In this document: piece after piece, positions 1,556-55,059 of the stretch
Layout: the number at the start of each line of letters is the position of its first letter
How positions within the stretch are numbered: the first letter of the stretch is position 1
DNA from: Anaerolineae bacterium
GTDB taxonomy: Bacteria > Chloroflexota > Anaerolineae > UBA1429
Direction of reading: 5' to 3'
Assembly (NCBI GenBank): GCA_050942995.1
Contig: JBMNOI010000001.1
Coordinates: 776-64,775 of the forward strand
DNA: 64,000 bases
Position numbers and translations under genes: made by a program
Notes under the pieces: generated by a model
Told to the model about the DNA's origin: nothing
The model's database searches: none
The model's input: only the letters and a program-made list of their open reading frames with translations

Positions 1556-3871
1556 ATGGACTCTGGCCTCGGAAAGAGCTTGCGGCAACATAGCACCATC
1601 GCACTCATCCTGGCCGCTTTCGTGGCCCTCGGTATGATCTATCAGCATACCACACCGATATTCGAGACACCGGACGAGCCGGACCACTATCTCTATTCTC
1701 AGTATATCACAGAACACAAGCAATTGCCCCCCCCGGCTCCTTCGGGCAAGGGATGGGGCTATGGAGAGTTGCATCAGCCACCGCTCTATTACCTGATGGG
1801 CGCCTTGCTGATGCCGGAGGGACTCGACGGGGACGACGTCAACGCCCTCTATCCGCGTAATGCGTTCGCGGCAGTGGGCTATCCAAAAGCCAGAGGAAAT
1901 CGAAACGCCACACTCCATCCATCCGAGGATTCTCCCACCCTGACCATGCTGACGCGTTCGGTGCGTCGCTTACGCGGCCTTTCACTGGTCCTGTCGGCGG
2001 GGACCGTGCTGCTCACCTATCTTATCGCGCGGCGTGCCGTTCCGAGAGATCGACGCATTGCGCTGGGCGCCGCGGCCGTGACGGCGTTCACTCCCCAGTT
2101 CCTCTTTATCGGCGCCAGTATCAACAATGACGCCACCGTGACCTTTTTCTCCACTTTGGCTCTCTATGTGGCGATGAGCGTGGTAACCGGGAATCGCCAC
2201 AATGTCCGAACCCCTCTGCTGCTGGGTGTTGTGGTAGGGCTCGCCACCCTGTCAAAGCTCAGCGGCCTGGCTGCAGCGGCGCTGGCGCCGGCGGCCTATG
2301 GCCTGGTCTATATCCAAAAACCCGATCGGCGCGTCTGGCCCGATCTGATACACCCCGTGCTGCTGGCGACCGTCGCAACCCTGGTCACCGGCGGCTGGTG
2401 GTACCTGCGCAACACACTGCAGTATCAGGATCCCCTCGCCCTGAACGCCTATCACAGCGTATTCAGCATGGGCTACGACACCCCGATGTCGATCCGCAAG
2501 ACGCTGACGATTGCTCTGGGCGCATTGCCCTCTTATTGGGGCGTCTTTGGCTGGCTGAACATACTGGCCGGCGAGTGGTTCTATGTGCTGGTTCGTGTCA
2601 TTATGCTCCTGGGCGTGCTGGGACTGATCGTTCGGGGCGCGCGTCGGATAAAAAAGCCTGCCGGAGAGTATCTTCCCGGTGTCGTCCTTGTCGCAATATG
2701 GGCGGCCCTGGTGCTGGGCATGAATCTCTACTTTATCCGCTCGGCCGGGCACACCCAGGGACGACTGGCCTTCCCGGGGATCAGCGCGCTGTCGTCGTTG
2801 CTGGCAATGGGGCTGCTCGCCCCATTGCCCGACGGCCGGCGCGGCATCGGTGTGGCGATCATGAGCGTGGGGCTGGGTGTCGTCGCGCTGATTATGCCCT
2901 ACGCCTATATCGCCCCGGCTTATAACCCGCCGCCACGCATCGCCCCGGCCGATCTGCCGGAATCGATGCATCCCGTCGAGATCACCTATTACGATTCGGG
3001 CGGCAACGATCTGATTACTCTGCGAGGCTACGAGATCCTCACTCCCGAGCTGTTCCCCGGCGACGAACTCCACCTGCGCCTCTACTGGCAGGCCCATACG
3101 CCCCCGGAACAGAACTATGTTCTGGGCATTCAACTGGTAAACCCCGACGAAAGACGCGTCGGCGGATTGGATACACACCCCGGGATGGGGCTCTATCCCA
3201 CCAGTCGCTGGAAGCCCGGCGAGGTGCTGGTCGATGACTATTTCGTGCCGGTTAGCGATCAGGTAGAAGGTCCCATCGCGGCGGCTCTGCGGGTGGGGCT
3301 ATATCAGGACGTGCACGACAATCTGCTCCCGCCCCGGGATTATCTGGGGCGCGACCTTTCCCCGGCCACCCATATCACCCGGGTGCGCATTGCTGCCGCC
3401 GCGCCGATCCGCCACAAGCCGGCGCACCCTCTGGCGGTACAATTCGACGATCGGGTCATTCTCACCGGCTACGATCTGGTGCCCGATGCGGGCAGCGACG
3501 GGCTTGGCCTCACGCTGTATTGGGAGTGTCTGGCGCCCCTGAACCATCCCTATACGGTGTTCGTCCATCTGGTGGACGAATCGGGCGCGGTCCTGGCTCA
3601 GGCCGACGGCCAGCCCATGGGGAACAGTTTCCCCACCACCTACTGGCAACCCGGCGACCGGATACGCGATGAACGCACGATCTCGCTGGACGATATCCGC
3701 ATCATGCCCGATTCTATATTTCGCCTGCTGGTGGGGTTCTACGACGAGGCCGATCGGCGGTTGCCGGTAACCTCCGATCACGCCGCCTCTCAGGCAACGG
3801 CCGACGCCGCCATCATCGGCCCGTTCCACATAAGCTCCCAGGGGATCGTATCCGATGACGCAACTCGTTGA
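1556..3871 (+). CDS. Large polytopic membrane protein, GT-C (ArnT/PMT-like) N-terminal domain plus C-terminal repeated beta-rich domains
   Basis: ORF 1484..3871. Many predicted TM helices, loop motif PIFETPDEPDHY. C-terminal ~100-aa repeats LRLYWQAHTP... and LTLYWECLAP... AGGAG precedes ATG 1556. Confidence 0.6.
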   Translation: MDSGLGKSLRQHSTIALILAAFVALGMIYQHTTPIFETPDEPDHYLYSQYITEHKQLPPPAPSGKGWGYGELHQPPLYYLMGALLMPEGLDGDDVNALYPRNAFAAVGYPKARGNRNATLHPSEDSPTLTMLTRSVRRLRGLSLVLSAGTVLLTYLIARRAVPRDRRIALGAAAVTAFTPQFLFIGASINNDATVTFFSTLALYVAMSVVTGNRHNVRTPLLLGVVVGLATLSKLSGLAAAALAPAAYGLVYIQKPDRRVWPDLIHPVLLATVATLVTGGWWYLRNTLQYQDPLALNAYHSVFSMGYDTPMSIRKTLTIALGALPSYWGVFGWLNILAGEWFYVLVRVIMLLGVLGLIVRGARRIKKPAGEYLPGVVLVAIWAALVLGMNLYFIRSAGHTQGRLAFPGISALSSLLAMGLLAPLPDGRRGIGVAIMSVGLGVVALIMPYAYIAPAYNPPPRIAPADLPESMHPVEITYYDSGGNDLITLRGYEILTPELFPGDELHLRLYWQAHTPPEQNYVLGIQLVNPDERRVGGLDTHPGMGLYPTSRWKPGEVLVDDYFVPVSDQVEGPIAAALRVGLYQDVHDNLLPPRDYLGRDLSPATHITRVRIAAAAPIRHKPAHPLAVQFDDRVILTGYDLVPDAGSDGLGLTLYWECLAPLNHPYTVFVHLVDESGAVLAQADGQPMGNSFPTTYWQPGDRIRDERTISLDDIRIMPDSIFRLLVGFYDEADRRLPVTSDHAASQATADAAIIGPFHISSQGIVSDDATR

Positions 3872-10940: not shown

Positions 10941-11150
10941 CTAAACTCCTCAACCGGCAGGCCCCCATCTGCCCAAAGTACCCGCCGAACCACGCACTCG
11001 ATCTTGCCATTATGGTAACACGTTCCGCCTCACGATGCTATCCTCAGCGGGAGGTTGCGCGGCATGGCCCGATCAGCCCGGGCTCTTTCCTTTGGCGCGC
11101 TGTATGCGATTCGACCGCGCGGATACATGAAAACCTGCCTCGAAAAATGG

Positions 11151-11179
11151 TTGACATATCAGAGGATTCATGATACTAT
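11151..11179 (+). promoter_or_regulatory. Sigma70-like promoter P1 (TTGACA-17-TACTAT)
   Basis: TTGACAtatcagaggattcatgaTACTAT with exact 17-nt spacer. Drives structured RNA copy 1. Confidence 0.6.
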
Positions 11180-11186
11180 GTTAGTG

Positions 11187-11486
11187 TAGAGTCTCGAGGG
11201 GTTAACGTTACGCCAGAGTACCTGTTCGGCAGGACTAGGAAGACAAGTGGGGATCTATCGGGAGATCGGTAGAAAACCATGAGTCAGTGAAAAGATAGTG
11301 GCACCACCACTGTCGGGAAGCTGGCAAGCGACTCGTCCGAGGGGAAACCCGAGGATGAAAGCGAGTCAACCGAAACGAACGAGTGGGTGCGACGAAGGTG
11401 TAATGAAGGTCACTTGAGACTCTACATCTCTCTTATTGGTGTACCGACTGTCGTATCCGGAGCGAGCCGCTGTGCACGGCTCGCTC
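11187..11486 (+). ncRNA. Structured RNA element copy 1 (riboswitch-like; cobalamin-like core, unconfirmed)
   Basis: ~200-nt core is ~95% identical to copy 2. Closing helix TGTAGAGTCTCGAG / CTTGAGACTCTACA. Motifs GGGAGATCGGTAGAAAACC and CCACTGTCGGGAAG. Ends in an intrinsic terminator. Confidence 0.5.
11449..11486 (+). terminator. Intrinsic terminator T1
   Basis: GGAGCGAGCCG-ctgtgca-CGGCTCGCTCC followed by CTTTTTAT. Confidence 0.7.
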
Positions 11487-11653
11487 CCTTTTTATACCTC
11501 CGTAACAGATAACCCCCTTCTAAAGATCTCCGCCGCAATTGGCACTGGCCACCTTCGGGAGGTGATTTGTACAGCCTCGGCCGAACTCGGCGCATTATGA
11601 ACATTATCTTTATAAATTCATCCGATAATCTATGAAATTGGCCTCAAAAGGGG

Positions 11654-11682
11654 TTGACATATCGGGGCCATTATGTTATCAT
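11654..11682 (+). promoter_or_regulatory. Sigma70-like promoter P2 (TTGACA-17-TATCAT)
   Basis: TTGACAtatcggggccattatgtTATCAT, 17-nt spacer. Drives structured RNA copy 2. Confidence 0.6.
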
Positions 11683-11689
11683 ACGGTTG

Positions 11690-12005
11690 CAGGGTCTTGA
11701 GAGATTGACGTCGCACTGGAGCGCCTGTTCGGTAGGACTAGGAAGACAAGTGGGGATCTATCGGGAGATCGGTAGAAAACCATGAGTCAGTGAAAAGATG
11801 GTGGCACCACCACTGTCGGGAAGCTGGCAAGCAAGTAGTCCGAGGGGAAACCCGAGGGTGAAAGTGAGTCAACCGAAACGAACGAGTAGGTGCGATGAAG
11901 GTGTGATGGAGGTCACTTGAGGCCCTGCGTTTTTATCGATAGCGTATCGATATGTAGTTCAGAGGGCGGGCCGCGATCGCTGATCGTGGCCCGCCCCTTT
12001 TTTTG
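11690..12005 (+). ncRNA. Structured RNA element copy 2 (riboswitch-like leader of the EEP/NYN/GNAT operon)
   Basis: Same conserved core as copy 1. Closing helix GCAGGGTCTTGAG / CTTGAGGCCCTGC has a different sequence but stays complementary, i.e. covariation. Followed by terminator T2, then the gene at 12236. Confidence 0.5.
11964..12004 (+). terminator. Intrinsic terminator T2
   Basis: GGGCGGGCC-gcgatcgctgatcgt-GGCCCGCCC followed by CTTTTTTTG. Confidence 0.75.
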
Positions 12006-12235
12006 CCACAGCCCCCGGTCTGGCACCACCTTCCGAAGGGTCTCTCCCGTGAGCGAATGGTTCACGAGGAAAGCGCACGATTGGCATTCGCTACCTTCGG
12101 AAGGTGGTTGTTTTCGCAAATCTTACGGCCGGGCTTTTTGCCAGGCCCGGAATGACATATACTGATTATAGGCCGCCCGAGTCCACCATACTCGACCCAT
12201 CCAGGGATGGCCATATCTCGTGTACGGATGGTGTA

Positions 12236-13246
12236 ATGACTGACCGATTGATAATGTTGAGCAGGGCCTATACCCTGCTGGCAGGGCTCTATCTTGTGAC
12301 GCTGCTGGCCCTGACCGTTGCGGCGCACGTGACCCACAAACCCGAGATCCGCGGAGTGTTGCGCACCGGCCGGGCGCTGCTGTTCTTACCGGCGCCGGTA
12401 TTGTGGCTTCCTGCGCTGGCTCTGGAGCGGTGGACGATGGCGCTCTTTTTGTTGCCGCTGGCAATCGCCCTCATCCCTTCGTGGGGGGCCCTTTTGCGCC
12501 CGCGAGGAGGAGGTGAACGCCCTGCACGGGGGGCTACGCTGACGGTGCTGACCTACAATCTACAGGCGCCGCACGAGGAGGAGGCGCCCCATCGCGCCGC
12601 GCTGATTCGCGAAATCGGCGCCGATATCGTCGCCCTGCAAGAGTTAAGCTCCGAAGCGGCGGCCCATCTGGCCAGCGCGCTGAGCGACATCTACCCTCAT
12701 CAGGCGCTCTACCCCCAACCCAATCGCTACGCGGGGCAGGGTCTGCTGAGCCGCTACCCGATCGTGACCGATGAATTCTGGCAGTGCGACGAGATCCCCG
12801 AACCGTTGGGGCATCAACGCGCCGAGCTGGACGTCAGTGGCACACGCGTCACGCTCTATAACGCCCATCCCGTGCCGCCCTTTTCGCTACAAGAGCGTTT
12901 GCGACTGCACCCGCACAGCGTCGATATGACGGCGCTGCTGGAACGCGTACGCACCGAACAGGGAGGAGCGGTCATTGTCGCCGGCGATCTGAACATGACC
13001 GCCCAATTTGAGGAATACCGGCGCCTGGCGGAAATGATGGTCGACGCCTATGTCGAAAGCGGTCGCAACGGCCCGGGGTTTACCTTCCCGGTGAACCCGC
13101 GCATCCCCCCACTGGCACGGCTGGATCACATCTTTTGCCGCGGCGACTTGTTACCGCTGGAGGCCCGTCCATTACGTCATTCCGGCGGATCGGATCATCG
13201 GCCGGTGTGGGCTCGACTGGCGCTGACCGGCGAGGAGAATTCATAA
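12236..13246 (+). CDS. Membrane-anchored endonuclease/exonuclease/phosphatase (EEP) family protein
   Basis: Track ORF 12104..13246. N-terminal TM helices, then EEP motifs LTYNLQAP, DIVALQEL, VAGDLNMT, SDHRPVWARL. Start at Met45 (12236) is tentative; GTG 12104 or ATG 12152 are alternatives. Confidence 0.65.
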   Translation: MTDRLIMLSRAYTLLAGLYLVTLLALTVAAHVTHKPEIRGVLRTGRALLFLPAPVLWLPALALERWTMALFLLPLAIALIPSWGALLRPRGGGERPARGATLTVLTYNLQAPHEEEAPHRAALIREIGADIVALQELSSEAAAHLASALSDIYPHQALYPQPNRYAGQGLLSRYPIVTDEFWQCDEIPEPLGHQRAELDVSGTRVTLYNAHPVPPFSLQERLRLHPHSVDMTALLERVRTEQGGAVIVAGDLNMTAQFEEYRRLAEMMVDAYVESGRNGPGFTFPVNPRIPPLARLDHIFCRGDLLPLEARPLRHSGGSDHRPVWARLALTGEENS

Positions 13247-13606
13247 AAGATGGTATTCGGCCGCTCTACCGCCTCGTCCACCATTCGGATATTCTACGCA
13301 TCGAGGGCATCATCTCGGGCTCCGGCCCCGGCGACGCCGGCTGTCTGGGCCGCATCATCATTTTTGACCAATTGTGTTATAATATCCCCCGGATGAATTG
13401 AGTTTCGAGAGGGCAATCCCCAGCAGCCTATATTTCAATTCAGAAATCGATTTTGGATGTCGGCTCGCAGGCGAAAAGCGCCTCGAAATGACCTCAAAGA
13501 TCGCCCTCTCAGTGCAGTGAATTGTGAAAGGTTGATCAATGTACAGGCAATTGTTAGGAATGGGCTCGCTCGTGGGCGCGCCCGGCTCGGAACGGAGAAG
13601 ATAGCC

Positions 13607-14704
13607 ATGACCCGAGCAATGATCTTTATCGATGGCACATGGTTGTACCTCAGCACCCCCCGTTTGGCCGACGATTACGGCACACCCGAACTACACCTCG
13701 ATTATGGACTCTTGCCCAGAGTTCTGGGCGACCAGATGAAAGAACAGTTGGGCCTTGGCGAGATCGATATTGTACGTACCTGTCTGTTCGCCAGTCACGC
13801 CATTAATTACGATCTCCGTGATGAAGAGATGGTCGAGCGCCATCTGGCTTTCTTTGACATGCTTAAAGAGGATTTTCATTACGAGGTCGAGCTCTATCCC
13901 ATCGACTTTCGCGGGCAACGCTTGCGCCGCAAAGATCGCGACCCCGAAACCGAGTTCGAGCCCAAGGAAAAGTGTGTCGATGTGGCGCTGGCCTCTACCA
14001 TGATGTACTATGCCGCCATCCCATCGGCGTACGACATCGCCATTGTGGTAGCGGGCGATCGAGACTATCTGCCCCTGCTGCAAAATGTCCGCCGCCTGGG
14101 CAAGCGTGTCGCCATCGTCAGCATCCGCGGTTGCTGCACGCCCGATTTCAGCGATCCGGCCAACACCCATCAGGTGCGCGACACCGACATTATCTGGCTC
14201 AACGACATCATCCCGCAGATCGAGCTCAAATGGGAACGCCGTCAGCTCGAGTGCCGTTCGCCCCTGCATGAGGGGAACCGTCTGGTGTGGACGACCTTTC
14301 GCCCCCGCACAGGGCAACCCTTCTACTGCCCCGAATGCCGCAAAAAACGTAACGCCATGCTGCAAGAGAGTTCCGGCGATACATCGTCAGCGTCGATGAC
14401 GGCGTCGATGACGCCGTCCACCACGAATGAACCCAACGGTAACGGCCATCCCGATCGGGACGGTGAAGGAAACGATGACGATTCGTCCTACTATGGCGTC
14501 ATCACCAAGGTATTCAAGGGCAACGGCTACGGATTCATCCGCAGCGAGACCGAGAGAGAGTACTTTTTCCATCTGACCGACCTCAAAAACGCACAGTGGG
14601 AGCAGATCGACACCGGCCTGCGTGTGTCGTTCTCCGTCGAACGAGAACCATCTCTCAACCCCGAACGCCGCGCCGGCGCGGCCAGTAATGTGTGGATCGT
14701 ATGA
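13607..14704 (+). CDS. NYN (LabA-like) nuclease domain - zinc ribbon - cold-shock domain fusion protein
   Basis: Track ORF 13457..14704, start at MTRAMIFIDGTW. NYN pattern CVDVALASTMMYYA...IAIVVAGDRDYLPLLQNVRRLGKRVAIVS. C-x-C...CPEC ribbon, S/T-rich linker, then C-terminal CSD YGVITKVFKGNGYGFIRSE...EYFFHLTDL. Confidence 0.7.
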   Translation: MTRAMIFIDGTWLYLSTPRLADDYGTPELHLDYGLLPRVLGDQMKEQLGLGEIDIVRTCLFASHAINYDLRDEEMVERHLAFFDMLKEDFHYEVELYPIDFRGQRLRRKDRDPETEFEPKEKCVDVALASTMMYYAAIPSAYDIAIVVAGDRDYLPLLQNVRRLGKRVAIVSIRGCCTPDFSDPANTHQVRDTDIIWLNDIIPQIELKWERRQLECRSPLHEGNRLVWTTFRPRTGQPFYCPECRKKRNAMLQESSGDTSSASMTASMTPSTTNEPNGNGHPDRDGEGNDDDSSYYGVITKVFKGNGYGFIRSETEREYFFHLTDLKNAQWEQIDTGLRVSFSVEREPSLNPERRAGAASNVWIV

Positions 14705-16951: not shown

Positions 16952-17280
16952 CCTTTCGAACGCCAGGAAGAGCCACGCCGGAGATCGCCCGGACGCCGGA
17001 TCGTTCGCCCTATGGGGGCAGAAGGCTGACGAAGGGCGGATGCAGCGCTACGCATTGCAAGAGGGCAGCGCGCTCTATGTCCTGCTGATCTTGAGAGCTG
17101 GCTGCCCATTACATCGGGAAAAATGAGATACAGCCACCATCGGTGGAGGAATAGGAATGAATAAATGACAATTATAATCAATTAGACAAGAAAAACAAAA
17201 AAACGGGCGGGACAAAACGGGGGGTGGCCTTTACACGGCGAGATCTACCGAGTATAATGAGGTTCGAGGGGAGTGAAACT

Positions 17281-18471
17281 ATGCAGAATAATGGTAACGG
17301 GCATGTCCTTGCCACAGGTTCCAAAACGTACCGTCGCTATAAGCTGATTGATCTCTTCGCAGGCGCAGGAGGATTTACGCTCGGATTCACGCCAGAATTC
17401 GGTCACCGCTTTGATATTGTATGGGCAAATGACATTAATCAATTTGCAGCAGACACATATAATGCTAATTTCGGCAATCACTGTGTTGTCGGAGACATCG
17501 TCGATCTCCTTAATGATCCTAAAGTCGTAATCCCGACTGCGGATGTGGTCATTGGCGGTCCTCCTTGTCAGGGCTTTAGCCTTCTCAACAAAAACCGCAA
17601 GGGAGATCCACGAAAGCAGCTATGGCGCCCGTTTTTGACGGTAGTTGAGCGATCAGAGGCCAAGCTATTTGTTATGGAGAATGTTCCTCAACTACTAGGA
17701 TCTAAAGAATATGATGAAATAAAAAAAGTAGCGGAAACCTTGGGTTTCAGGCTTACCGCAGCTAAGCTTTGCGCAGCAGATTACGGAGTCCCGCAATTAC
17801 GATTCCGAGCATTTGTGATCGGTTGTCGGTTTGCCGATCCTTCAGATTTCTTTCCCCCTAAACAGACTCACTATGATCCTGACAAAGAACCAGGACTATT
17901 TGATATAGTAGAAAGAAACAGCACGGGTAGAGTTCATACTTGGCGTACGGTTCGAGACGCGATTGGGGATCTTCCGCCACCTGAAGGCACGGAGATTCGA
18001 GATGAAGACCCTCCTCTGGATCTTCACTTTGGTCGATCTCCAACTGAGTTAAGCATGAAGCGATATCGAGCGATTCCCGAAGAGGGAATGAACCGGTTTG
18101 ATTTACAGCGTTTGGCTCCGGAGTTAACACCCAAGTGCTGGATTCGGAAAAAAACAGGAGGAACCGATCTATTCGGACGGCTATGGCGGGATAAACCCTC
18201 TGTCACGATCAGGACAGAATTCTTCAAGCCCGAAAAGGGACGTTACCTACATCCGGAACAGCACAGACCGATCACGCATCGCGAGGCGGCACGGCTCCAA
18301 TCTTTCCCAGACACCTTCCGGTTTCGGGGTAGTAAGATCGAGATAGCACGCCAGATCGGTAATGCTGTGCCTCCCATGTTGGCAGCACGAGTAGCGGATG
18401 CGGTCGTCGAGATTTTGGCTTTGGCAGAGGAGAATGAACCGATCAGACAGATGGAGATGCAACATCGCTAG
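17281..18471 (+). CDS. DNA (cytosine-5)-methyltransferase (Type II R-M methylase)
   Basis: Motif I DLFAGAGGFTLGF, motif IV GGPPCQGFS, ENV, QLRFRAFVIG, QIGNAVPP. AT-rich codon usage unlike the surrounding genes. Start at MQNNGNG after GAGGGGAG RBS. Confidence 0.9.
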   Translation: MQNNGNGHVLATGSKTYRRYKLIDLFAGAGGFTLGFTPEFGHRFDIVWANDINQFAADTYNANFGNHCVVGDIVDLLNDPKVVIPTADVVIGGPPCQGFSLLNKNRKGDPRKQLWRPFLTVVERSEAKLFVMENVPQLLGSKEYDEIKKVAETLGFRLTAAKLCAADYGVPQLRFRAFVIGCRFADPSDFFPPKQTHYDPDKEPGLFDIVERNSTGRVHTWRTVRDAIGDLPPPEGTEIRDEDPPLDLHFGRSPTELSMKRYRAIPEEGMNRFDLQRLAPELTPKCWIRKKTGGTDLFGRLWRDKPSVTIRTEFFKPEKGRYLHPEQHRPITHREAARLQSFPDTFRFRGSKIEIARQIGNAVPPMLAARVADAVVEILALAEENEPIRQMEMQHR

Positions 18472-18494
18472 GCTAGATATGACCGGATCGTTGA

Positions 18495-18522
18495 CCCCGC
18501 CGGAAACTTGGCGGGGTTTTTT
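18495..18522 (+). terminator. Intrinsic terminator after the methyltransferase
   Basis: CCCCGCC-ggaaactt-GGCGGGG followed by TTTTTT. Confidence 0.7.
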
Positions 18523-18548
18523 GTTACTTTTCTGAAACATGATGTGCA

Positions 18549-18770
18549 ATGATCTATCATGATTTAAAGCATGTTTTGGGACACAACGTGCAAAAGCTGC
18601 GCAAGTCGCTGGATATGACTCAAAAGGAACTTGCCGAACGCACGGGACTAAATCGTTCATATATAGCAGGGATAGAACGTGGAATGCGAAATGTGCGACT
18701 AAGTACCATAGCAGTGCTCGCGGCAGCCATGAATGTTGATCCAGAAGAATTGCTTAAGAAAGATAATTAA
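18549..18770 (+). CDS. XRE-family HTH protein, likely R-M controller (C) protein
   Basis: LGHNVQKLRKSLDMTQKELAERTGLNRSYIAGIERGMRNVRLSTIAVLAAAMNVDPEEL is a canonical HTH_3 domain. Sits between the methylase and the nuclease genes. Confidence 0.65.
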   Translation: MIYHDLKHVLGHNVQKLRKSLDMTQKELAERTGLNRSYIAGIERGMRNVRLSTIAVLAAAMNVDPEELLKKDN

Positions 18771-18781
18771 AGCACATTATT

Positions 18782-19666
18782 ATGGGCCCACAACGAGAAA
18801 AAATGAACATGAATAATATCTTATCCGAGATGCACGGCATCATGGACCGATTAAGAAAAGCCGAAAGTGAAGGCACAACACGGCGAGAACAGGTTCGGTT
18901 GATTGTGCAGCTCCGGCATCTCGTTGACCTCTGTGGAAAAGCGCTCTACCCGGAGTATAAATCCGCTCGTGCAAGGCTACTGGCATATATGCAAGAACAT
19001 GTGGGACAGCCTATTCACTCTACCGAACTCGCGGCTGTTGCCGGCATCAGCGAGTATGCCAGACGAATTAGGGAGTTACGGGTGGAGTTCGGTTATGATA
19101 TATTGACGATGGAGGATGATCCGAATCTCGGCGCGAATGAATATCTGCTAACTAGCATCGAACCCGACCAAGCTCGGGCAAGCCGCTGGGAATTGGCAAA
19201 CACGATCAGAAACCGGAAAGATTTGAATGCCTCTGAGCGAATTCTAGAGTTCCTCAAAGCAAATGTCGGATGCCCCGTCACAAGCGATGAGCTTCAGTAC
19301 GTTGCAAAAATCAAAGAGTTTGGGAGACGCATCCGTGACTTGAGAACAGAAGGGGGCTGGATCATCCACAGTGGCGTCTTAGGACGGCCTGATCTCAGGC
19401 CAACGCAATACGTGCTCGAATCATTGGAGCAAACAATGCCCCATGAACGGAGCATACCAGAGTCAGTTGCCAAAAAAGTATACGAAAGGGATAACTATCA
19501 ATGTGTTGAATGCGGATGGTCTAAAGCGAGTGCCGATCCGACTGATTCTCCCCGTTATCTACAGCTACATCATCGCGTTCCTCATGCAGACAAAGGCCCA
19601 AACACCGTAGATAATCTTGAAGTTCGATGTAATATATGCCATAAACAGGCACACACTACTCAATGA
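18782..19666 (+). CDS. HNH nuclease, probable Type II restriction endonuclease, with tandem N-terminal DNA-binding repeats
   Basis: C-terminal HNH/zinc motif CVECGW...LQLHHRVPHADKGPNTVDNLEVRCNICH. Internal repeats ...ISEYARRIRELRVEFGYDI and ...IKEFGRRIRDLRTEGGWIIHS. AT-rich like the methylase. Confidence 0.6.
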   Translation: MGPQREKMNMNNILSEMHGIMDRLRKAESEGTTRREQVRLIVQLRHLVDLCGKALYPEYKSARARLLAYMQEHVGQPIHSTELAAVAGISEYARRIRELRVEFGYDILTMEDDPNLGANEYLLTSIEPDQARASRWELANTIRNRKDLNASERILEFLKANVGCPVTSDELQYVAKIKEFGRRIRDLRTEGGWIIHSGVLGRPDLRPTQYVLESLEQTMPHERSIPESVAKKVYERDNYQCVECGWSKASADPTDSPRYLQLHHRVPHADKGPNTVDNLEVRCNICHKQAHTTQ

Positions 19667-19727
19667 CCAAGTATCACTTGTGAACAACGTAGATACGGCT
19701 GTAATTGTATTAAGCGCTTATCTATCT

Positions 19728-20336
19728 ATGCAACAAATGCGGTCATTCCCTTGGCGGGAAGAGAACGATCCATTCCACATCCTTATTGCGGAAATGATGC
19801 TTATCCGAACGCGTGCCGACCTAGTAGTTCCGGTTTATTTGCAATTCATCCGACAGTGGCCGCGGCCGGATGATCTGGTATGTGCTGCTGATGAGCAAAT
19901 TGCACAAACGTTAGTACCGTTAGGTCTGCCCCAGCGTATTCCCTTTTTCAAGCAAGCAGCGAAACACATCATCGAGAACCATGCGGGAGTGGTGCCTTCA
20001 AAGCGCAAAGACCTTGAGAAGATTCCCGGCGTGGGTCGATATGTTGCTGAGGCAGTCTTGGCATTTGCATTCAATCAACCCATTGTTCCCGCAGATGTGA
20101 ATGTACTGCGGTGGATATCGCGCATAACGGGGCTCGAGATGATCAGTAGCAGCAAAGGTTCGAAAGAGATACGATTACTGCTACCTAGGCTCGCCCCGTT
20201 GGGCGGACGGCAAGCGTACAAGTTCCTCGATTTTTTGCGTGAAATATGTCGTCCGAGAAAACCTGCATGTGATGAGTGTTGGATTCAGATGTTGTGTCAT
20301 TACGGTCGAAAAGCATTACCAGATTCGACCGCATAA
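19728..20336 (+). CDS. Endonuclease III family HhH-GPD DNA glycosylase with [4Fe-4S] loop (Mig-like mismatch glycosylase candidate)
   Basis: FHILIAEMMLIRTRADLVVPVYLQF. HhH motif LEKIPGVGRYVAEAVLAFAF...VDVNVLRWISRI. Cluster loop C-x6-C-x2-C-x5-C (CRPRKPACDECWIQMLC). Start placed at MQQMRSFPWREE. Confidence 0.75.
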   Translation: MQQMRSFPWREENDPFHILIAEMMLIRTRADLVVPVYLQFIRQWPRPDDLVCAADEQIAQTLVPLGLPQRIPFFKQAAKHIIENHAGVVPSKRKDLEKIPGVGRYVAEAVLAFAFNQPIVPADVNVLRWISRITGLEMISSSKGSKEIRLLLPRLAPLGGRQAYKFLDFLREICRPRKPACDECWIQMLCHYGRKALPDSTA

Positions 20337-20370: not shown

Positions 20371-20389
20371 AGCGACAATCGAACAGTGA

Positions 20390-20611
20390 AAGATGTAGAT
20401 CGGGAAGAGTAGCTGTCAAAGCGGGATTCAGAGAGCCGGGGTAAGGTGAGAGCCCGGTATCAGCGCAGACAACGAATGGGCCCGGGAGTCGCGCGGCCGA
20501 ACGCGCAGAGCGCTACTAGGCCGCGACGGAGTCGCCACCGTTATCAGGGCAGAGGGTATCGGTTGACCTCGTTGTGACAGAGGATCAACCCGTACCTGCA
20601 AGAGTGAGGCT
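20390..20611 (+). promoter_or_regulatory. Structured 5' leader of trpB2, T-box-like (tentative)
   Basis: ~250-nt untranslated leader. AGAGAG box, loop with UGG. Degenerate T-box-like GGCTGGCCCGCA overlaps the 5' side of the terminator. Confidence 0.35.
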
Positions 20612-20645
20612 GGCCCGCACATTAAAATCCGCCATCACGGCGGGA
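20612..20645 (+). terminator. Intrinsic terminator/attenuator in the trpB2 leader
   Basis: AAAATCCGCC-atcac-GGCGGGATTTTTTATT immediately upstream of the trpB2 RBS. Confidence 0.7.
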
Positions 20646-20821
20646 TTTTTTATTATATATGTCGGGTCGGGCTAAGAAGGGTGGCACCACGGGAGCAAAG
20701 CTCTCGTCCCTTGGGGACGAGGGCTTTTTTTATTGGCCGACACATCCCGGCGGGCCGAGAGCCATCGAATCGTAATGTTCCGGGTGTTCGGGGTGATCCG
20801 CGCAAACGAGGAGGGAAAAAG

Positions 20822-39380: not shown

Positions 39381-39455
39381 GCCGACGTAGCTCAACGGCA
39401 GAGCAGCGGTTTTGTAAACCGCCGGTTGTGGGTTCAAGTCCCTCCGTCGGCTCCA
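39381..39455 (+). tRNA. tRNA-Thr (anticodon TGT)
   Basis: Cloverleaf read by eye. Acceptor GCCGACG/CGTCGGC. Anticodon stem GCGGT/ACCGC, loop TTTGTAA. T-arm GGGTTCAAGTCCC. CCA encoded. Confidence 0.8.
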
Positions 39456-39507
39456 CGAGTTTGTGGGCGCAGAGGGGTTTATCAAAAATCGAGCGTTCGG
39501 TAAATGT

Positions 39508-39589
39508 GGGCAGGTACCCAAGCGGCCAAAGGGGACTGACTGTAAATCAGTTGGCAACGCCTTCGGAGGTTCGAATCCTTCCCTGCCCA
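39508..39589 (+). tRNA. tRNA-Tyr (anticodon GTA), class II with long variable arm
   Basis: Acceptor GGGCAGG/CCTGCCC. Anticodon stem ACTGA/TCAGT, loop CTGTAAA. Long variable arm. CCA not encoded. Confidence 0.8.
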
Positions 39590-39611
39590 CCTTGATTTTT
39601 TACCCAGTAGT

Positions 39612-39684
39612 GCCCACGTAGCTCAGACGGTAGAGCACGTTCTTGGTAAGGACGTGGTCATGGGTTCAAGTCCCATCGTGGGCT
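39612..39684 (+). tRNA. tRNA-Thr (anticodon GGT)
   Basis: Acceptor GCCCACG/CGTGGGC. Anticodon loop TTGGTAA. T-arm ATGGGTTCAAGTCCCAT. CCA not encoded. Confidence 0.8.
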
Positions 39685-41207: not shown

Positions 41208-41280
41208 CAGGCGAGTAGCTCAATTGGCAGAGCGACGGTCTCCAAAACCGTAGGCTGCGGGTTCGATTCCTGCCTCGCCT
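41208..41280 (+). tRNA. tRNA-Trp (anticodon CCA)
   Basis: Acceptor AGGCGAG/CTCGCCT. Anticodon stem ACGGT/ACCGT, loop CTCCAAA. T-loop TTCGATT. Sits between rpmG and secE. Confidence 0.85.
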
Positions 41281-41424
41281 GCCTCGTGTGACTGTTAGGC
41301 ACCGCGCCAGGCTCGCGGCCCGTGAATTCGGCTGACCGCGAAGCGTTGATTGATCGAGTACCTGGCCCCCGGTGTCTACAATTTTGTTGGAAAAAGTGCG
41401 GGCCCTGCCCCGAGGAGAGCGCCC

Positions 41425-43655: not shown

Positions 43656-43881
43656 ACAACCGAACAACGCTCGGCCGTAGACAGCAGGTGCGTATTGACG
43701 CTTAATCATCAGCCTGCCGAGGCAGAGATCACGGGTTGCCCCTAAATAGCCGGAGAATCGAGCGAGGCGACCCGGCTTGAGGTAGATATTCCTAATTCAG
43801 GAACATGCCCCAATGAGATCTTTGCGTCGGTATGGCGCAAAGATCTTTTTTTTCATCTTACCGGAAGGAGGTGAGACGCTC
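43656..43881 (+). promoter_or_regulatory. rplJ-rplL leader region (L10 autoregulatory leader candidate)
   Basis: ~225-nt untranslated region between rplA and rplJ, the position of the L10 leader in other bacteria. Structure not verified. Confidence 0.35.
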
Positions 43882-49029: not shown

Positions 49030-50433
49030 TTAGCTGCGTCGTTTCGGCAGATGTAATGCCCGACCTCGCGCCGCCAGCGCCGCCTCGGCGATAGCCTCGC
49101 CCAGTGTGGGGTGAGGATGCACGGTGCGCCCGATCTCGTCCAGCGTGGCCTCCAACCCCACGGCCAGGGTGCCCTCCAGCACCAGGTCGCTGGCGTGGGG
49201 GCCCAGCACATGCAGCCCCAGCACAGCCCCATAGCGCGATTCGGATACCACCTTGACAAAGCCGTTGGTATCGCCGTTGGCGATGGCCTTGCCCAAATTG
49301 GCCATGGAAAAGACGCCCACCTCGACCTCGTGCCCCGCCGCCCGTGCCTGTTCCTCCGTCAACCCCACCCCCGCCGCCTCGGGCAGGGTAAAGATGCAAT
49401 TGGGGATGGCGTCGTAATCCATGGCGGCGACGTGCCCCAGAGCGTTCTCTACCGCCACGATGCCCTGATGCGAGGCCACATGGGCCAGCATGGGGCCGTC
49501 GGCGGCCACATCACCGATGGCGAACACGCCGGGCACCACCGTCCGCATCTGACGATCCACCTGAATGCCCTTGCGATCGGGCTTGATGCCCAGCACCTCC
49601 AGCCCCAGCCCTTCGATGTTGGGCGCCCGCCCGATGGCCGAGAGCACGAGAGCGCATTCCACCGTCCGCTCACCCTCGGCGGTAGCGACGATGACGCGAC
49701 AATGATCGGCATCCTGTTCCACATGTTGCACGGCACCGCCCGTTATCACCTCGATGCCTTGCTGCTCGAACGTCCAGGCCAGCCCCTCGCCGATGGATTC
49801 GTCCATGAGCGGCGCCAGACGCGGCAGCATCTCGACCACCGTAACCTTGACCCCCACCGTGTGGAACAGACTGGCGAATTCCAGCCCGATGGCCCCGCCG
49901 CCGATGACGCACAGGCTCTCGGGCAGCTCCTCCAGCGAAAGGGCGCCGGTGGAGTCGATCACCCGGGGGCCGTCCAGACCGGGGATGGGCGCCTGCATCG
50001 GGCGCGAGCCGGTGGCGATGATGACGTTTTCGGCGGCAAGGGTCTCCTGCCCGTCCGCGCGCCGTATGGCCAGCGTATCGGGGCGCAAAAAAGACGCCTC
50101 CCCCTCGATGATCTCGACGCCGACGCGATCGAGCAACAGCCGCACACCGTTCACCATCTGCCGGGTCACGGCGGCTTTGCGCTCCAAAGCAACCGACCAG
50201 TCAAAGCGCGGCGCATCGACCATGACACCGAACTGGGCCGCGTCGCGAGTCAGCGCCAGCACCTCAGCCGAGCGCAGCAACGCCTTGGTGGGTATGCAGC
50301 CCACGTTCAGGCATACGCCGCCCACATATTCCCTCTCGACGCACACCACCCGCGCGCCCAGTTGCGCGGCGCGCAGGGCGGCCACATATCCACCCGGCCC
50401 CAGGCCGATGATGGCGATATCCGCACGTGTCAT
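49030..50433 (-). CDS. lpdA: Dihydrolipoyl dehydrogenase
   Basis: ADIAIIGLGPGGYVAALRAAQLG...GGVCLNVGCIPTKALL redox-active disulfide. His-Pro-x-x-Glu dimer-interface motif. 467 aa. Confidence 0.9.
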   Translation of the reverse strand: MTRADIAIIGLGPGGYVAALRAAQLGARVVCVEREYVGGVCLNVGCIPTKALLRSAEVLALTRDAAQFGVMVDAPRFDWSVALERKAAVTRQMVNGVRLLLDRVGVEIIEGEASFLRPDTLAIRRADGQETLAAENVIIATGSRPMQAPIPGLDGPRVIDSTGALSLEELPESLCVIGGGAIGLEFASLFHTVGVKVTVVEMLPRLAPLMDESIGEGLAWTFEQQGIEVITGGAVQHVEQDADHCRVIVATAEGERTVECALVLSAIGRAPNIEGLGLEVLGIKPDRKGIQVDRQMRTVVPGVFAIGDVAADGPMLAHVASHQGIVAVENALGHVAAMDYDAIPNCIFTLPEAAGVGLTEEQARAAGHEVEVGVFSMANLGKAIANGDTNGFVKVVSESRYGAVLGLHVLGPHASDLVLEGTLAVGLEATLDEIGRTVHPHPTLGEAIAEAALAARGRALHLPKRRS

Positions 50434-50448
50434 GGCAATGCCTCCGTA

Positions 50449-51495
50449 TCACTGAATTGCCTTTGTATTTTGCGATACCCCCGGGCGACGGACGAATCCT
50501 CGCGCCGCCAGCGCCTCCACCGCCCGCCGGGCGTCCACCAGCCAGGGACCGTCCAGGCGCAGCGTAATGCACACGCGATCACCGGGGCGCAGGGCATGCT
50601 CGCGCTCGCCGTCCAGAGCCAGCAACAGAGGTTCTTCGGCGATCATCTCCAGCATCTCCCCGGGCATCAGCGTACGCGCCTCGCCGATGCCGACCTCGGA
50701 CAAGAGTCCCGGCCCCAAAGGCGCCAGCACGCGACGCGATTCGCCGGGATCGAGCGTCAGGGCCAGCCCCGCCGGCTCATCGGCATCTATCGTGCAGATC
50801 CACCCGGCCAGAGCCGAGATGCCGGTGCCCGCCGGATGTGCTCGCGTGACTACGACATACTTGATGTCGGCGGCGTTCCATATGGCTCGGGCGCCGACAA
50901 AGCGTCCCGCCAGCAGGGCAACATCCACCAGAGCGACATCGTCAATCGGTGGCGATCCGTCCTGAGCGCTCAGGGCGATCTCGAGCCACTTGCTACGAAC
51001 CGCCACATCATCACGTGCCACCCAACCCGTCGCCAGCGCTCCGGCGGCCATGCCGGCTACGGTCCCCTCGATGAATTCGGGCAGCACATTGTTGGTGCCG
51101 GTGGATATGGCCAGAAGCGGCACATCGCCCGCGCCTTTCGAGACCACCCGCGTTGTACCGTCTCCCCCCAGCACGATGATGCATCTCGCGCCGGCCTTTT
51201 GCATCTGCGCGGCGGCGCGTTCAGCGTCGACGGCATCCCCCCGCACAGGCATGTCGACCATCTCGACGCAGGGTAGCGCCTCGCGGCTCAGGCCGTCGAG
51301 TGCCCGCTCGCCCAGTCGATAGTCGTCCGGCATAATGAGCACACGTCTCACCCCCACGGCGCCCAGCCCCACCAGCGCCCGCCGGATGATGCCCACCTTG
51401 CCCTGGTTATCTACTGTAGCGGCATGGCCGACCACTCGTCGGATATCCTTACCCGACGCCGGATTGGCGATAATGCCCACCACGCCGCCGCTCAT
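50449..51495 (-). CDS. ATP-NAD kinase family protein (NAD kinase-like, AcoX-like)
   Basis: Track ORF 50449..51672(-). Start at MSGGVVGIIANPASGKD. GGDG motif CIIVLGGDGTTRVV. 15 bp upstream of lpdA on the same strand. Confidence 0.6.
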   Translation of the reverse strand: MSGGVVGIIANPASGKDIRRVVGHAATVDNQGKVGIIRRALVGLGAVGVRRVLIMPDDYRLGERALDGLSREALPCVEMVDMPVRGDAVDAERAAAQMQKAGARCIIVLGGDGTTRVVSKGAGDVPLLAISTGTNNVLPEFIEGTVAGMAAGALATGWVARDDVAVRSKWLEIALSAQDGSPPIDDVALVDVALLAGRFVGARAIWNAADIKYVVVTRAHPAGTGISALAGWICTIDADEPAGLALTLDPGESRRVLAPLGPGLLSEVGIGEARTLMPGEMLEMIAEEPLLLALDGEREHALRPGDRVCITLRLDGPWLVDARRAVEALAARGFVRRPGVSQNTKAIQ

Positions 51496-51556
51496 ATCAC
51501 CTCGCAAAGATCTCCTTGTGAAGGGTAACGCCTCACGGCCTCTGGCACAACGTGCC

Positions 51557-52480: not shown

Positions 52481-52644
52481 GGTCGTCTCCTTGTGATGTT
52501 GTCGCCGATTCTACCTGTGACGAGAGAGGGCGTCAAAGCCGTTCGGCCCGTTGCCCATCCTCATGGCAGAGCGCCGGTTGACCGTGAACAACCTGCGAGA
52601 TGACATGCCCCTCATTCGAGAGTGGGGGCATATTCTGCCCCGCT

Positions 52645-53049
52645 CTACTCGCCGCGCGATTCCGCCCTGGCCGTAAAGCGCTCGACATGGATGATAAAAC
52701 GCTGGTGTTCTCCCTCGCCGATAACGCCCACCTCATCCCGCGCGACGACGCGAAACGTCAGACGACGGCCGTCGATCTCGATCAGTTCGGCCCGCGCCGT
52801 GACGGTACGCCCCATCACGGTGGGCGCCAGATGGCTGATATTGACCACCGTGCCCACACTACGATAGCCCTCGGGCAAGAGAGGGTCGACCACATCCACA
52901 GCAGCGCCCTCCATCAGGGCGATCATCTCGGGGGTGGCCAGCACATACAGTACCCCGCTGCCCCAATGATGGGCAGTATGCCCCTCCTCCACCACCAGGC
53001 TACGCTCGCCGGTAGCCCCTACCTGAATCGCATCGAACAGTTCGGCCAT
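52645..53049 (-). CDS. Hotdog-fold thioesterase family protein
   Basis: 134 aa. HHWGSGVLYVLATPEMIALMEGAA pattern as in FlK/4HBT-like thioesterases. Confidence 0.55.
   Translation of the reverse strand: MAELFDAIQVGATGERSLVVEEGHTAHHWGSGVLYVLATPEMIALMEGAAVDVVDPLLPEGYRSVGTVVNISHLAPTVMGRTVTARAELIEIDGRRLTFRVVARDEVGVIGEGEHQRFIIHVERFTARAESRGE

Positions 53050-53184: not shown

Positions 53185-55059
<1,875 letters not shown>

What the first reader, a model, noticed from the sequence alone, without database searches (positions are those of the whole stretch)
11151..12005. Two tandem paralogous structured RNAs, each with its own promoter and terminator, with covarying closing helices
Two ~200-nt cores (about 11201-11400 and 11712-11900) are ~95% identical. 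Each is preceded by a textbook TTGACA-17-TAnnAT promoter and followed by a strong intrinsic terminator. The helix that would close the element differs in sequence between the copies but stays complementary: copy 1 TGTAGAGTCTCGAG / CTTGAGACTCTACA, copy 2 GCAGGGTCTTGAG / CTTGAGGCCCTGC with G-U pairs. This covariation argues for a functional RNA structure rather than decayed duplication. The core (GGGAGATCGGTAGAAAACC ... CCACTGTCGGGAAG ... GGGGAAACCC) resembles the cobalamin-riboswitch core (GGGAAnC-GGTGnGAAnnCC, GCCACUG...GGGAAG), but I cannot confirm the family. No reasonable ORF exists in either unit. The tandem promoter-aptamer-terminator layout resembles tandem riboswitches gating the downstream operon.
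Basis: seen in the sequence. Interest (0 to 1): 0.8.

Follow-up and report, generated by a model that had tools for sequence, protein, structure and literature searches.

The report
Paired genes for new structured RNA

Summary
Window 11184-11428 and 11687-11930 (+ strand) are two paralogous structured RNAs. Each has a near-consensus TTGACA-17-TGnTAnnAT promoter and its own strong intrinsic terminator, and neither contains a conserved ORF. The same tandem pair sits at the syntenic site in a second Anaerolineae species. Across the four copies, 99% of cells in 78 predicted pairs form pairs. Fifteen pairs show double compensatory changes, against 5.5±1.7 in shuffles.

No Rfam family matches, even at E≤10, so this is not cobalamin, AdoCbl-variant, 6S or raiA. 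The "B12 box" is one strand of a covarying helix. The units are not leaders. Each has its own promoter, the terminators fold independently of the domain, the ~45-bp closing rod is too stable to switch, and in the relative the next gene is convergent.

The fold is a long rod with a textbook kink-turn, a purine-rich internal-loop tract, and a four-way junction with two GNRA-capped arms. I read it as a pair of stand-alone "sibling" genes for an uncatalogued, compactly folded trans-acting RNA, probably protein-binding. The function is inferred, not shown. I found it in only two species.

The parts
11151..11179 (+). Promoter of copy 1: TTGACA, 17-nt spacer, TG-n-TACTAT (extended -10), with an A-tract just upstream. 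The predicted start, about G11186, is flush with the first paired base of P1.
   Evidence: 10/12 match, TG present. The same layout is conserved in all four copies. The intergenic region further upstream is not conserved.
11184..11428 (+). Copy 1 structured domain. P1 11184-11198/11413-11427; P1a 11199-11203/11407-11411; P2 11206-11214/11397-11405; P3 11218-11228/11380-11390. Purine-rich internal-loop tract 11229-11246/11363-11379. Four-way junction with arms P4 11247-11280 (GAGA loop), P5 11283-11325 and P6 11328-11362 (GAAA loop).
   Evidence: MFE, z -7.7; consensus structure and covariation; CM R1, 274 bits.
11215..11217 (+). Kink-turn of copy 1, non-bulged strand: A-G-A (positions 3n, 2n, 1n), followed by G11218 of the C helix.
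   Evidence: Read from alignment A3 columns 33-36. The k-turn definition is taken from PMC9723947.
11391..11396 (+). Kink-turn of copy 1, bulged strand: 3-nt bulge GAC, then G-A-A (1b, 2b, 3b). It is preceded by C11390, which forms the C-G pair closing the C helix (P3), and followed by the NC helix (P2).
   Evidence: Alignment A3 columns 221-227. The bulge varies (GAC/GAU/GGU/AGU) while GAA is invariant in all four copies.
11459..11495 (+). Intrinsic terminator of copy 1: 11-bp G+C-rich stem plus U-run. A poorly conserved, U-rich linker of about 30 nt (11429-11458) separates it from P1.
   Evidence: It folds independently of the domain.
11654..11682 (+). Promoter of copy 2: TTGACA, 17-nt spacer, TG-n-TATCAT. 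The predicted start is about G11689, the first base of P1.
   Evidence: 11/12 match, TG present.
11687..11930 (+). Copy 2 structured domain, with the same architecture as copy 1 at +503 nt. P1 is 11689-11701/11916-11928. The kink-turn is GGA at 11718-11720 with GAU+GAA at 11894-11899.
   Evidence: z -7.5; CM R1, 278 bits.
11964..12004 (+). Intrinsic terminator of copy 2: 15-bp stem plus U7.

Best explanation
These are two stand-alone, paralogous ('sibling') genes for an RNA family that no catalogue holds.

How each unit is made: it is transcribed from its own strong sigma-70-type promoter, starting at the first nucleotide of the closing helix. It is ended by its own intrinsic terminator. The product is about 310 nt.

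How it folds: the first ~245 nt form (i) a ~45-bp imperfect rod that pairs the 5' end with the sequence just upstream of the 3' linker and terminator; (ii) a consensus kink-turn inside that rod, between P2 and P3; (iii) a highly conserved, purine-rich tract of non-canonical internal loops; and (iv) a four-way junction whose arms P4 and P6 end in GNRA tetraloops.

Shown here: the gene anatomy, the secondary structure, its conservation by compensatory change in two species, the absence of coding potential, and the absence of any match to known families.

Inferred: the kink lets the junction arms fold back along the conserved, G.U-rich lower rod to give a compact particle. The RNA then acts in trans as a folded molecule. 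The most likely mode is binding one or more proteins, as an RNP scaffold or a sequestering RNA. Ligand sensing or catalysis are less likely alternatives. It does not act by controlling a gene downstream in cis.
For: Gene anatomy:
- All four copies (window x2, L004 x2) keep TTGACA-17-TGnTAnnAT promoters scoring 10-11/12.
- All four have strong terminator hairpins with U-runs.
- Upstream of the -35 element, conservation between the two species falls to the level of an unconstrained spacer.

Structure:
- z = -7.7 and -7.5 on the + strand only.
- 78 consensus pairs, with 99.0% of cells paired.
- 15 pairs have changes on both sides, against 5.5±1.7 in shuffles (0/500) and 1-3 in slid controls.
- L004_a vs L004_b: 48 differences in paired columns, of which only 3 break a pair.
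- Invariant G.U pairs fix the strand as +.

Kink-turn: C helix closed by an invariant C-G pair, a variable 3-nt bulge, then invariant G.A, A.G and A.G/A.A. This follows the definition quoted in PMC9723947.

Tetraloops: P4 reads GAGA, GGGA or GAAA, so GNRA is kept while N and R change. P6 is GAAA in all copies.

Not cis-acting:
- Separate promoters.
- Terminators fold on their own.
- The downstream gene differs between the species and is convergent in L004.

Not an assembly artefact: the pair was recovered from five other independent assemblies.

Not on a mobile element: the surrounding genes are core chromosome, and there is no phage or plasmid match.
Against: - There is no expression data, so the promoters, terminators and 5'/3' ends are predictions.
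- Only two species, four sequences, are known. The covariation statistics therefore rest on few independent events, and the two window copies share a homogenised core (95% identical).
- No partner protein is identified. No L7Ae/YbxF-type, Ro/TROVE, RT or Cas gene lies in the 64-kb window.
- The fold-back and the protein-binding mode are inferred from motif knowledge and were not tested.
- A U-rich tract directly after P1 in copy 2 and L004_b could point to some termination-related or Hfq-type biology that I have not accounted for.
Confidence: 0.72

Rival explanations
1. Tandem riboswitches (cobalamin-like or another ligand) that control the downstream operon by premature termination.
For: - The promoter-structured domain-terminator order resembles a transcriptional OFF switch.
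- The complex junction with conserved purines looks aptamer-like.
- In the window, a gene on the same strand follows at 12236.
Against: - No Rfam riboswitch family matches, even at E<=10.
- The 'B12 box' covaries as an ordinary helix strand.
- Each domain has its own promoter, so they are not two aptamers in one leader.
- There is no antiterminator: terminators and domain fold independently.
- P1 to P3 amount to about 45 bp (-105 kcal/mol for the domain), which is far too stable for ligand-gated switching.
- In the relative, the next gene is convergent, and Exo_endo_phos lies on another contig without the RNA.
Confidence: 0.06
2. Sibling base-pairing sRNAs, like OmrA/B, PrrF1/2 or AbcR1/2, that regulate mRNAs in trans through a short seed.
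For: - Tandem paralogues, each with its own promoter and terminator, are typical of sibling sRNAs (review PMC4211561, listed).
- There is a U-rich linker plus a terminator hairpin.
- The 13-nt stretch GAAGGTGTAATGA in the rod of copy 1 recurs at the start codon of the downstream gene, 12227-12239 (D2).
Against: - About 63% of the domain's nucleotides are paired (156 of 261 alignment columns), and the longest conserved unpaired stretches are purine-rich internal loops, not an exposed seed.
- Conservation follows a complex tertiary-type architecture (k-turn, four-way junction, GNRA loops), which base-pairing sRNAs do not need.
- The D2 match involves only copy 1, lies inside a helix, and has no counterpart in the relative.
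Confidence: 0.1
3. A 6S-like RNA that sequesters RNA polymerase holoenzyme by mimicking an open promoter.
For: - A long rod formed by the 5' and 3' ends.
- Probably abundant, given near-consensus promoters.
- Some bacteria have two 6S paralogues.
- The Rfam 6S model is known to miss divergent members (my own knowledge).
Against: - RF00013 does not match at E<=10.
- Where 6S has a central bubble and a single apical stem, this RNA has a four-way junction whose three arms are each supported by compensatory changes.
- A kink-turn in the rod is not a 6S feature.
Confidence: 0.04
4. A catalytic RNA, or a ligand-sensing RNA that acts in trans. That is, the fold serves chemistry or small-molecule recognition rather than protein binding.
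For: - Its size and degree of ordered structure are those for which Breaker and colleagues argue ribozyme-like roles (PMC10861870).
- There is an invariant purine-rich internal-loop tract next to the junction.
Against: - No cleavage site, substrate or associated gene points to a reaction.
- Nothing distinguishes this from protein binding with the data available.
Confidence: 0.08

Closest known systems
raiA motif RNA (RF03072) and similar orphan large structured bacterial ncRNAs (OLE, ROOL, GOLLD)
   Same: - A stand-alone gene with its own promoter and terminator.
- More than 200 nt, with a multi-stem junction, many invariant unpaired nucleotides and no expression platform.
- Function unknown (PMC10861870).
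- OLE also uses a kink-turn, bound by a YbxF/L7Ae homologue (PMC9723947).
   Different: - No sequence or structure match to any of their Rfam models.
- raiA is single-copy and widespread in Bacillota and Actinomycetota, and is reported as nearly absent from Anaerolineae. This RNA is a tandem pair seen in only two Anaerolineae species.
- It is much smaller than OLE, ROOL or GOLLD.
Sibling sRNA pairs encoded in tandem (for example PrrF1/PrrF2, AbcR1/AbcR2, OmrA/OmrB)
   Same: Two adjacent paralogues, each with its own promoter and Rho-independent terminator, and divergent in part of the sequence (review PMC4211561).
   Different: Those are 80-150-nt, loosely structured base-pairing RNAs with exposed seeds. 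This one is ~245 nt of tightly folded, covarying structure with tertiary-structure motifs.
Cobalamin riboswitch (RF00174) and AdoCbl-variant (RF01689)
   Same: A four-way junction core, purine-rich joining strands, and short strings such as GGGAAG and CCACUG.
   Different: - No CM match at E<=10.
- CCACUG is not conserved.
- There is no expression platform and no B12-related gene context.
- It is an independent transcription unit.
6S RNA (RF00013)
   Same: A long closing rod formed by the two ends, likely high expression, and occasional paralogue pairs.
   Different: It has a four-way junction instead of a central bubble and apical stem, it has a kink-turn, and there is no model match.
Kink-turn (Kt-7 type), as found in SAM-I, lysine and T-box RNAs and in OLE
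   Same: - A C helix ending in C-G, a 3-nt bulge of free sequence, and tandem sheared G.A/A.G followed by A.G.
- The core GC|NNN|GAA over GGA|GC is, from memory, the same as H. marismortui Kt-7.
   Different: This is a structural module, not a family. Here it sits in the closing rod of an otherwise unrelated RNA, and kinking has not been shown.

Membership tests
Cobalamin riboswitch (RF00174 / RF01689) | Scores at or above the family covariance-model threshold | tested here: not met
   No hit at gathering thresholds. Not even listed at E<=10 in an 1101-nt search of the window pair or the L004 pair.
Cobalamin riboswitch (RF00174 / RF01689) | Conserved B12-box (GCCACUG-type) joining strand | tested here: not met
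   CCACUG at 11307-11312 is the 3' strand of P5. In L004_a it is replaced by a different sequence, with compensating changes opposite.
Cobalamin riboswitch (RF00174 / RF01689) | Lies in the 5' leader of cobalamin transport or biosynthesis (or B12-independent isozyme) genes, with an expression platform | tested here: not met
   The neighbours are a pyridine-nucleotide disulphide oxidoreductase (divergent) and an Exo_endo_phos protein. The next gene is convergent in the relative. The terminators fold independently.
Tandem riboswitch architecture | Two aptamers within one 5' leader acting on the same downstream gene | tested here: not met
   Each domain has its own 10-11/12 promoter and its own terminator in both species. 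The downstream gene is not conserved.
6S RNA (RF00013) | Model match; rod with a large central bubble and a single apical stem | tested here: not met
   No match at E<=10. The apical part is a four-way junction with three covarying arms.
raiA motif RNA (RF03072) | Model match; P1-P6 with two pseudoknots; single-copy gene | tested here: not met
   No match at E<=10. It is present as a tandem pair. The family description is taken from PMC10861870.
Kink-turn structural motif | C helix ending in a C-G pair, 3-nt bulge, then two or three sheared G.A pairs opening the NC helix | tested here: met
   A3 columns 36/221 are G-C in 4 of 4 copies. The bulge, columns 222-224, is GAC/GAU/GGU/AGU. Columns 225-227 are GAA, opposite columns 33-35, which are GGA (AGA in copy 1). 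The definition is from PMC9723947. Chance is roughly 1/2000 per 3x6 loop (my estimate).
Kink-turn structural motif | The RNA actually adopts the kinked conformation, or binds an L7Ae/YbxF-type protein | not testable with these tools
   This needs FRET, gel mobility or a protein-binding assay. No L7Ae-family gene was found in the window.
Stand-alone sibling sRNA genes | Adjacent paralogues, each with its own promoter and Rho-independent terminator, and non-coding | tested here: met
   for promoters and terminators. for stops in all frames. The antisense frame that is open in all four copies has 49-80% amino-acid identity to copy 1, against 73-88% nucleotide identity, and no match among 5.8 billion proteins.
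Stand-alone sibling sRNA genes | Discrete transcripts detected | not testable with these tools
   No transcriptome data are accessible.

The most novel reading that the evidence does not exclude
This is the founding example of a new class of mid-sized (~250 nt), tertiary-structured bacterial ncRNA. It has a k-turn-kinked rod, an invariant purine-loop tract and a GNRA-capped four-way junction. It is confined to a poorly sampled Anaerolineae lineage and kept as a tandem gene pair. Its biochemical role (RNP core, sensor or ribozyme) is not represented among known RNA families.
Probability: 0.55. Interest if true: 0.6.

Novelty: new variant of a known kind. Interest (0 to 1): 0.48.

Why it matters
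Highly ordered bacterial RNAs longer than 200 nt are few. Historically they have turned out to be ribozymes, RNP cores or global regulators, so each new class is a lead to new RNA biochemistry. This one comes from Anaerolineae (Chloroflexota), a largely uncultured class with almost no RNA biology described. It is also unusually tractable: it is short, has a clear secondary structure, and carries a recognisable kink-turn and two GNRA loops that suggest a defined 3D fold suitable for probing, pull-downs or cryo-EM. The case also shows how short string resemblances to the cobalamin core can mislead. Its importance is limited because only two species are known to carry it and nothing yet points to a function.

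Tried and rejected
1. Rfam, all 4227 families, at gathering and at E<=10, on both species' loci. Only chance-level hits: miRNA and snoRNA models on the terminators, group-II-D1D4-4 at E=1.6, isrK at E=0.06.

2. Genome-contig scan with GGGGAAACCC-N{10,24}-CAACCGAAANGA. Four hits, all chance by nhmmer and by eye.

3. Metagenome-contig scan with TAGGAAGNNAAGNGGGGATCT. Nine hits, all matching only the pattern locally. That collection evidently does not hold the source contigs.

4. Viral scans with three patterns and blastn against phages and plasmids. Nothing.

5. Synteny through homologues of the flanking oxidoreductase and of the Exo_endo_phos protein. Only the 73%-identical relative (P0002, L004-L007) carries the RNA. 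More distant homologues sit in unrelated contexts and give no CM or nhmmer hit.

6. Using the protein database as a nucleotide index, by searching with the antisense frame that is open in all four copies. No hit at E<=10.

7. A small-protein gene. Rejected.

8. CsrA/RsmA sponge. The number of GGA motifs is about what the purine-rich composition predicts (composition; my estimate), so this was not pursued.

9. Retron, omega-RNA, tracrRNA and Y-RNA readings. No RT, TnpB/IscB, Cas or Ro/TROVE gene in the window.

10. SRP helix-8 resemblance (GUCAG...GGAAGC.GGC). Judged coincidental, since no SRP model hit appeared.
Full report
**What is there**

Window 11143-11442 and 11646-11945 form a 300-nt direct repeat with a 503-nt period. 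Each copy starts with a near-consensus sigma-70-type promoter:
- TTGACA-17-TACTAT at 11151-11179
- TTGACA-17-TATCAT at 11654-11682

Both have a TG extended -10 and score 10/12 and 11/12. The region has four promoter-like sites, against 1.2 expected. Each copy ends with a strong intrinsic terminator:
- 11459-11487, an 11-bp stem followed by CTTTTTAT
- 11964-11996, a 15-bp stem followed by CTTTTTTT

Between promoter and terminator lie about 245 nt that fold far better than shuffled sequence on the + strand (-105.6 and -104.4 kcal/mol; z -7.7 and -7.5). On the - strand the fold is unremarkable (z -2.7). The predicted transcription starts, about G11186 and G11689 (7 nt after the -10), coincide with the first paired nucleotide of the closing helix. 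This is read directly from the sequence.

The closing rod is only 77% identical. All 19 differences between the two copies that fall in paired positions keep the pair (3 double changes, 13 wobble-compatible, 0 broken).

**Organism and homologues**

The flanking oxidoreductase is annotated by NCBI as coming from an Anaerolineae MAG. The identical locus was assembled independently in a JGI metagenome (L002).

The only close relative of that gene is P0002, at 73% amino-acid identity. It lies in a syntenic block (GNAT, metallophosphoesterase, GNAT, MR_MLE). The divergent position upstream of it again holds two tandem copies of the RNA: L004 3622-3362 and 3138-2893, minus strand of the locus. These are 73-83% identical to the window copies over the whole alignment and 75% identical to each other.

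Both L004 copies have TTGACA-17-TG-n-TATTAT promoters scoring 11/12. Both have terminator hairpins, one with an 18-bp and one with a 16-bp stem, followed by U-runs. That pair was also recovered in three further assemblies.

Upstream of the -35 element, the intergenic region shows no conserved block and aligns only with a 34-nt gap. Conservation therefore spans exactly promoter to terminator, as expected for an RNA gene.

**Structure**

RNAalifold on the four sequences gives 78 pairs, 15 of which show compensatory double changes. Counted against that structure:
- 99.0% of cells form standard pairs.
- 15 pairs have changes on both sides, against 5.5±1.7 in column shuffles (0 of 500 reach the observed value).
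- Sliding the partners by ±1-3 columns gives only 1-3 such pairs.

Every helix except the 6-bp base of P5 has at least one double change. L004_a and L004_b differ at 48 paired positions with only 3 broken pairs. Several G.U pairs are invariant, which fixes the functional strand as + and the molecule as RNA.

The architecture, in copy 1 coordinates:
- P1 11184-11198/11413-11427
- P1a 11199-11203/11407-11411
- P2 11206-11214/11397-11405
- an asymmetric 3x6 internal loop
- P3 11218-11228/11380-11390
- a conserved purine-rich tract of small internal loops, 11229-11246/11363-11379
- a four-way junction with 2-nt purine linkers and three arms:
  - P4 11247-11280, with a 3x3 GGA/AAA loop, capped by GAGA
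  - P5 11283-11325, with a 5x5 loop; its apex is variable and carries a 13-nt insertion in L004_a
  - P6 11328-11362, with a tandem G.A, capped by GAAA

The P4 loop reads GAGA, GGGA or GAAA in different copies. GNRA is therefore preserved while N and R change.

**A kink-turn in the rod**

The 3x6 loop between P2 and P3 matches the k-turn definition quoted in PMC9723947: a Watson-Crick C helix, a 3-nt bulge, then two or three sheared G.A pairs, with a C-G pair next to the bulge.
- On the 3' strand, P3 ends in an invariant C, paired to an invariant G (A3 columns 221/36).
- A 3-nt bulge of free sequence follows: GAC, GAU, GGU or AGU.
- Then comes an invariant GAA (copy 1 11394-11396; copy 2 11897-11899).
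- Opposite lies GGA (AGA in copy 1), at 11215-11217 and 11718-11720.

This gives G.A, A.G and A.G/A.A before P2 resumes. From memory, the core is the same as H. marismortui Kt-7.

The pattern of a variable bulge with invariant G.A pairs is what a k-turn predicts. By my estimate it would arise by chance in roughly 1 in 2000 loops of this size. Actual kinking is not shown.

I infer that the kink lets the junction arms and their GNRA loops pack against the conserved, G.U-rich lower rod, as k-turns do in SAM-I, lysine and T-box RNAs (established knowledge).

**What it is not**

Known RNA families:
- cmscan against all 4227 Rfam families finds nothing here at gathering thresholds.
- At E<=10 it finds only noise on both species' loci. 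That excludes cobalamin, AdoCbl-variant, 6S, raiA, SRP and every other riboswitch model at the level these models can see.

A cis-acting leader:
- The two domains are separate transcription units.
- The full-length folds keep the terminators as independent hairpins with no alternative pairing to the domain.
- The closing rod of about 45 bp cannot plausibly be ligand-gated.
- The gene after the pair is Exo_endo_phos in the window but a convergent 168-aa ORF in the relative. There, the Exo_endo_phos orthologue lies on other contigs without the RNA.

A protein-coding gene:
- All frames carry stops, and no sense frame is open in all four copies.
- The one antisense frame that is open for about 44 codons in all four shows 49-80% amino-acid identity to copy 1, against 73-88% nucleotide identity.
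- It has no match in 5.8 billion proteins.

A mobile element:
- The window is core chromosome, carrying EF-Tu, NusG, L10, Clp ATPase, RadA-like, GltX and CysS.
- It has no RT, Cas, TnpB/IscB or Ro gene.
- There are no phage, plasmid or viral-contig matches.

**Distribution**

All attempts to find further homologues failed. These comprised one GTDB-wide and one JGI-wide pattern scan built on invariant segments, synteny look-ups around more distant homologues of both flanking genes, and a covariance model (R1) run over every locus fetched and the whole window.

The pattern scans require exact matches of 18-21 specified bases. They exclude close relatives among 185,579 species representatives, but not divergent family members. 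As far as these tools reach, the RNA occurs in two related, uncultured Anaerolineae species, always as a tandem pair beside the same oxidoreductase gene.

Within the window species the core has been homogenised (95%) while the rods have diverged with compensation (77%). In the relative the two copies differ throughout (75%). The duplication is therefore old, and both copies are maintained.

**Most likely mechanism**

I commit to stand-alone sibling genes for an abundant, compactly folded, trans-acting RNA. Confidence in the gene-and-structure part is about 0.85, and about 0.72 for the statement as a whole.

Within that, protein binding (RNP scaffold or sequestration) is my leading guess, at about 0.35-0.4. 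The reasons are that k-turns, tandem G.A pairs and long rods with conserved asymmetric loops are typical protein platforms. OLE with its YbxF partner is one such case (PMC9723947).

Catalysis or ligand sensing in trans, base-pairing regulation and a 6S-like role remain as rivals, with the probabilities given in the rival section. Nothing in the gene neighbourhood points to a pathway. The only constant neighbour is a divergently transcribed pyridine-nucleotide disulphide oxidoreductase.

**Verdict**

This is a real and well-supported feature. It is best described as a new family within the known kind 'orphan structured bacterial ncRNA'. Interest is moderate: attractive anatomy and an under-explored phylum, but a narrow known distribution and no functional lead.

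Noticed in passing
window 11550-11564, 12027-12041, 12092-12106, 53081-53095: A short palindromic motif, CACCTTCGGGAGGTG or close variants, occurs at four sites (8 strand-matches, against 0.74 expected). Three of them flank the RNA genes. The two at 12025-12039 and 12094-12108 also form a perfect 15-nt inverted repeat 54 nt apart, between terminator 2 and the next gene. This may be a REP-like element or a protein-binding site.
   Followed up: partly
window 11394-11406 vs 12227-12239: The 13-nt stretch GAAGGTGTAATGA on the 3' strand of copy 1's rod recurs as GATGGTGTAATGA across the start codon (ATG at 12236) of the downstream Exo_endo_phos gene. The 5' rod strand of copy 1 (11206-11215) could therefore pair with that translation start. 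It is seen for copy 1 only, has no counterpart in the relative, and is probably chance.
   Followed up: partly
window 11929-11940; L004 about 2880-2893 (minus strand): In copy 2 and L004_b, the closing helix P1 is followed directly by a U-run (GUUUUUAU and CUUUUUUUG). P1 itself could therefore act as a first terminator, or this could be an Hfq-type site, ahead of the canonical terminator. Copies 1 and L004_a have only a pyrimidine-rich tract there.
   Followed up: no
A3 columns 50-57 / 201-207 (window 11232-11239 / 11370-11376; L004 copies): In both L004 copies, the internal loop below the four-way junction reads AGUA opposite GAA(A). That is the loop-E / sarcin-ricin consensus. Both window copies read ACUA instead, so the motif is not uniformly kept.
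   Followed up: no
L002 position about 1495 (equivalent to window 11365): The independent JGI assembly of the same species has one difference in copy 1, G to A at window 11365. It turns the C11244-G11365 pair into C.A and lowers the CM score from 274.3 to 269.6 bits. This is population-level variation in copy 1.
   Followed up: partly
L143-L146 (relative's Exo_endo_phos contigs): All four independent assemblies of the relative's Exo_endo_phos locus begin 124-213 nt upstream of the gene. This suggests a repeat or an assembly-breaking element just upstream. No RNA homologue lies in the retained sequence.
   Followed up: partly
window 13457-14704 (+): A 415-aa protein combining an NYN ribonuclease-type domain with a C-terminal cold-shock domain lies two genes downstream of the RNA pair. 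An NYN+CSD protein (368 aa) also lies downstream of Exo_endo_phos in the relative (L143 3455-4561), but that block is not linked to the RNA pair there.
   Followed up: partly
window 20387-20714 (+): A T-box leader (RF00230, 101 bits, above gathering), with a long insertion before the terminator/antiterminator region.
   Followed up: no
window 43657-43860 (+); tRNAs at 39381-39684, 41209-41281 (+), 55387-55459 (-): A ribosomal protein L10 leader upstream of rplJ, and a cluster of three tRNAs upstream of tuf plus two further tRNAs. This is the ordinary core-genome tuf-nusG-rplKAJL region.
   Followed up: no
window 49111-55725 (+): Four consecutive large ORFs (721, 422, 380 and 654 aa) have no Pfam match at E<=1e-5. 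The last overlaps a tRNA on the opposite strand, so at least part of this may be mis-called.
   Followed up: no
window 17224-20336 (+): A C-5 cytosine DNA methylase is followed by an HTH+HNH endonuclease and an HhH-GPD glycosylase-like protein. This looks like a restriction-modification or very-short-patch-repair-type cluster, about 5 kb from the RNA genes.
   Followed up: no
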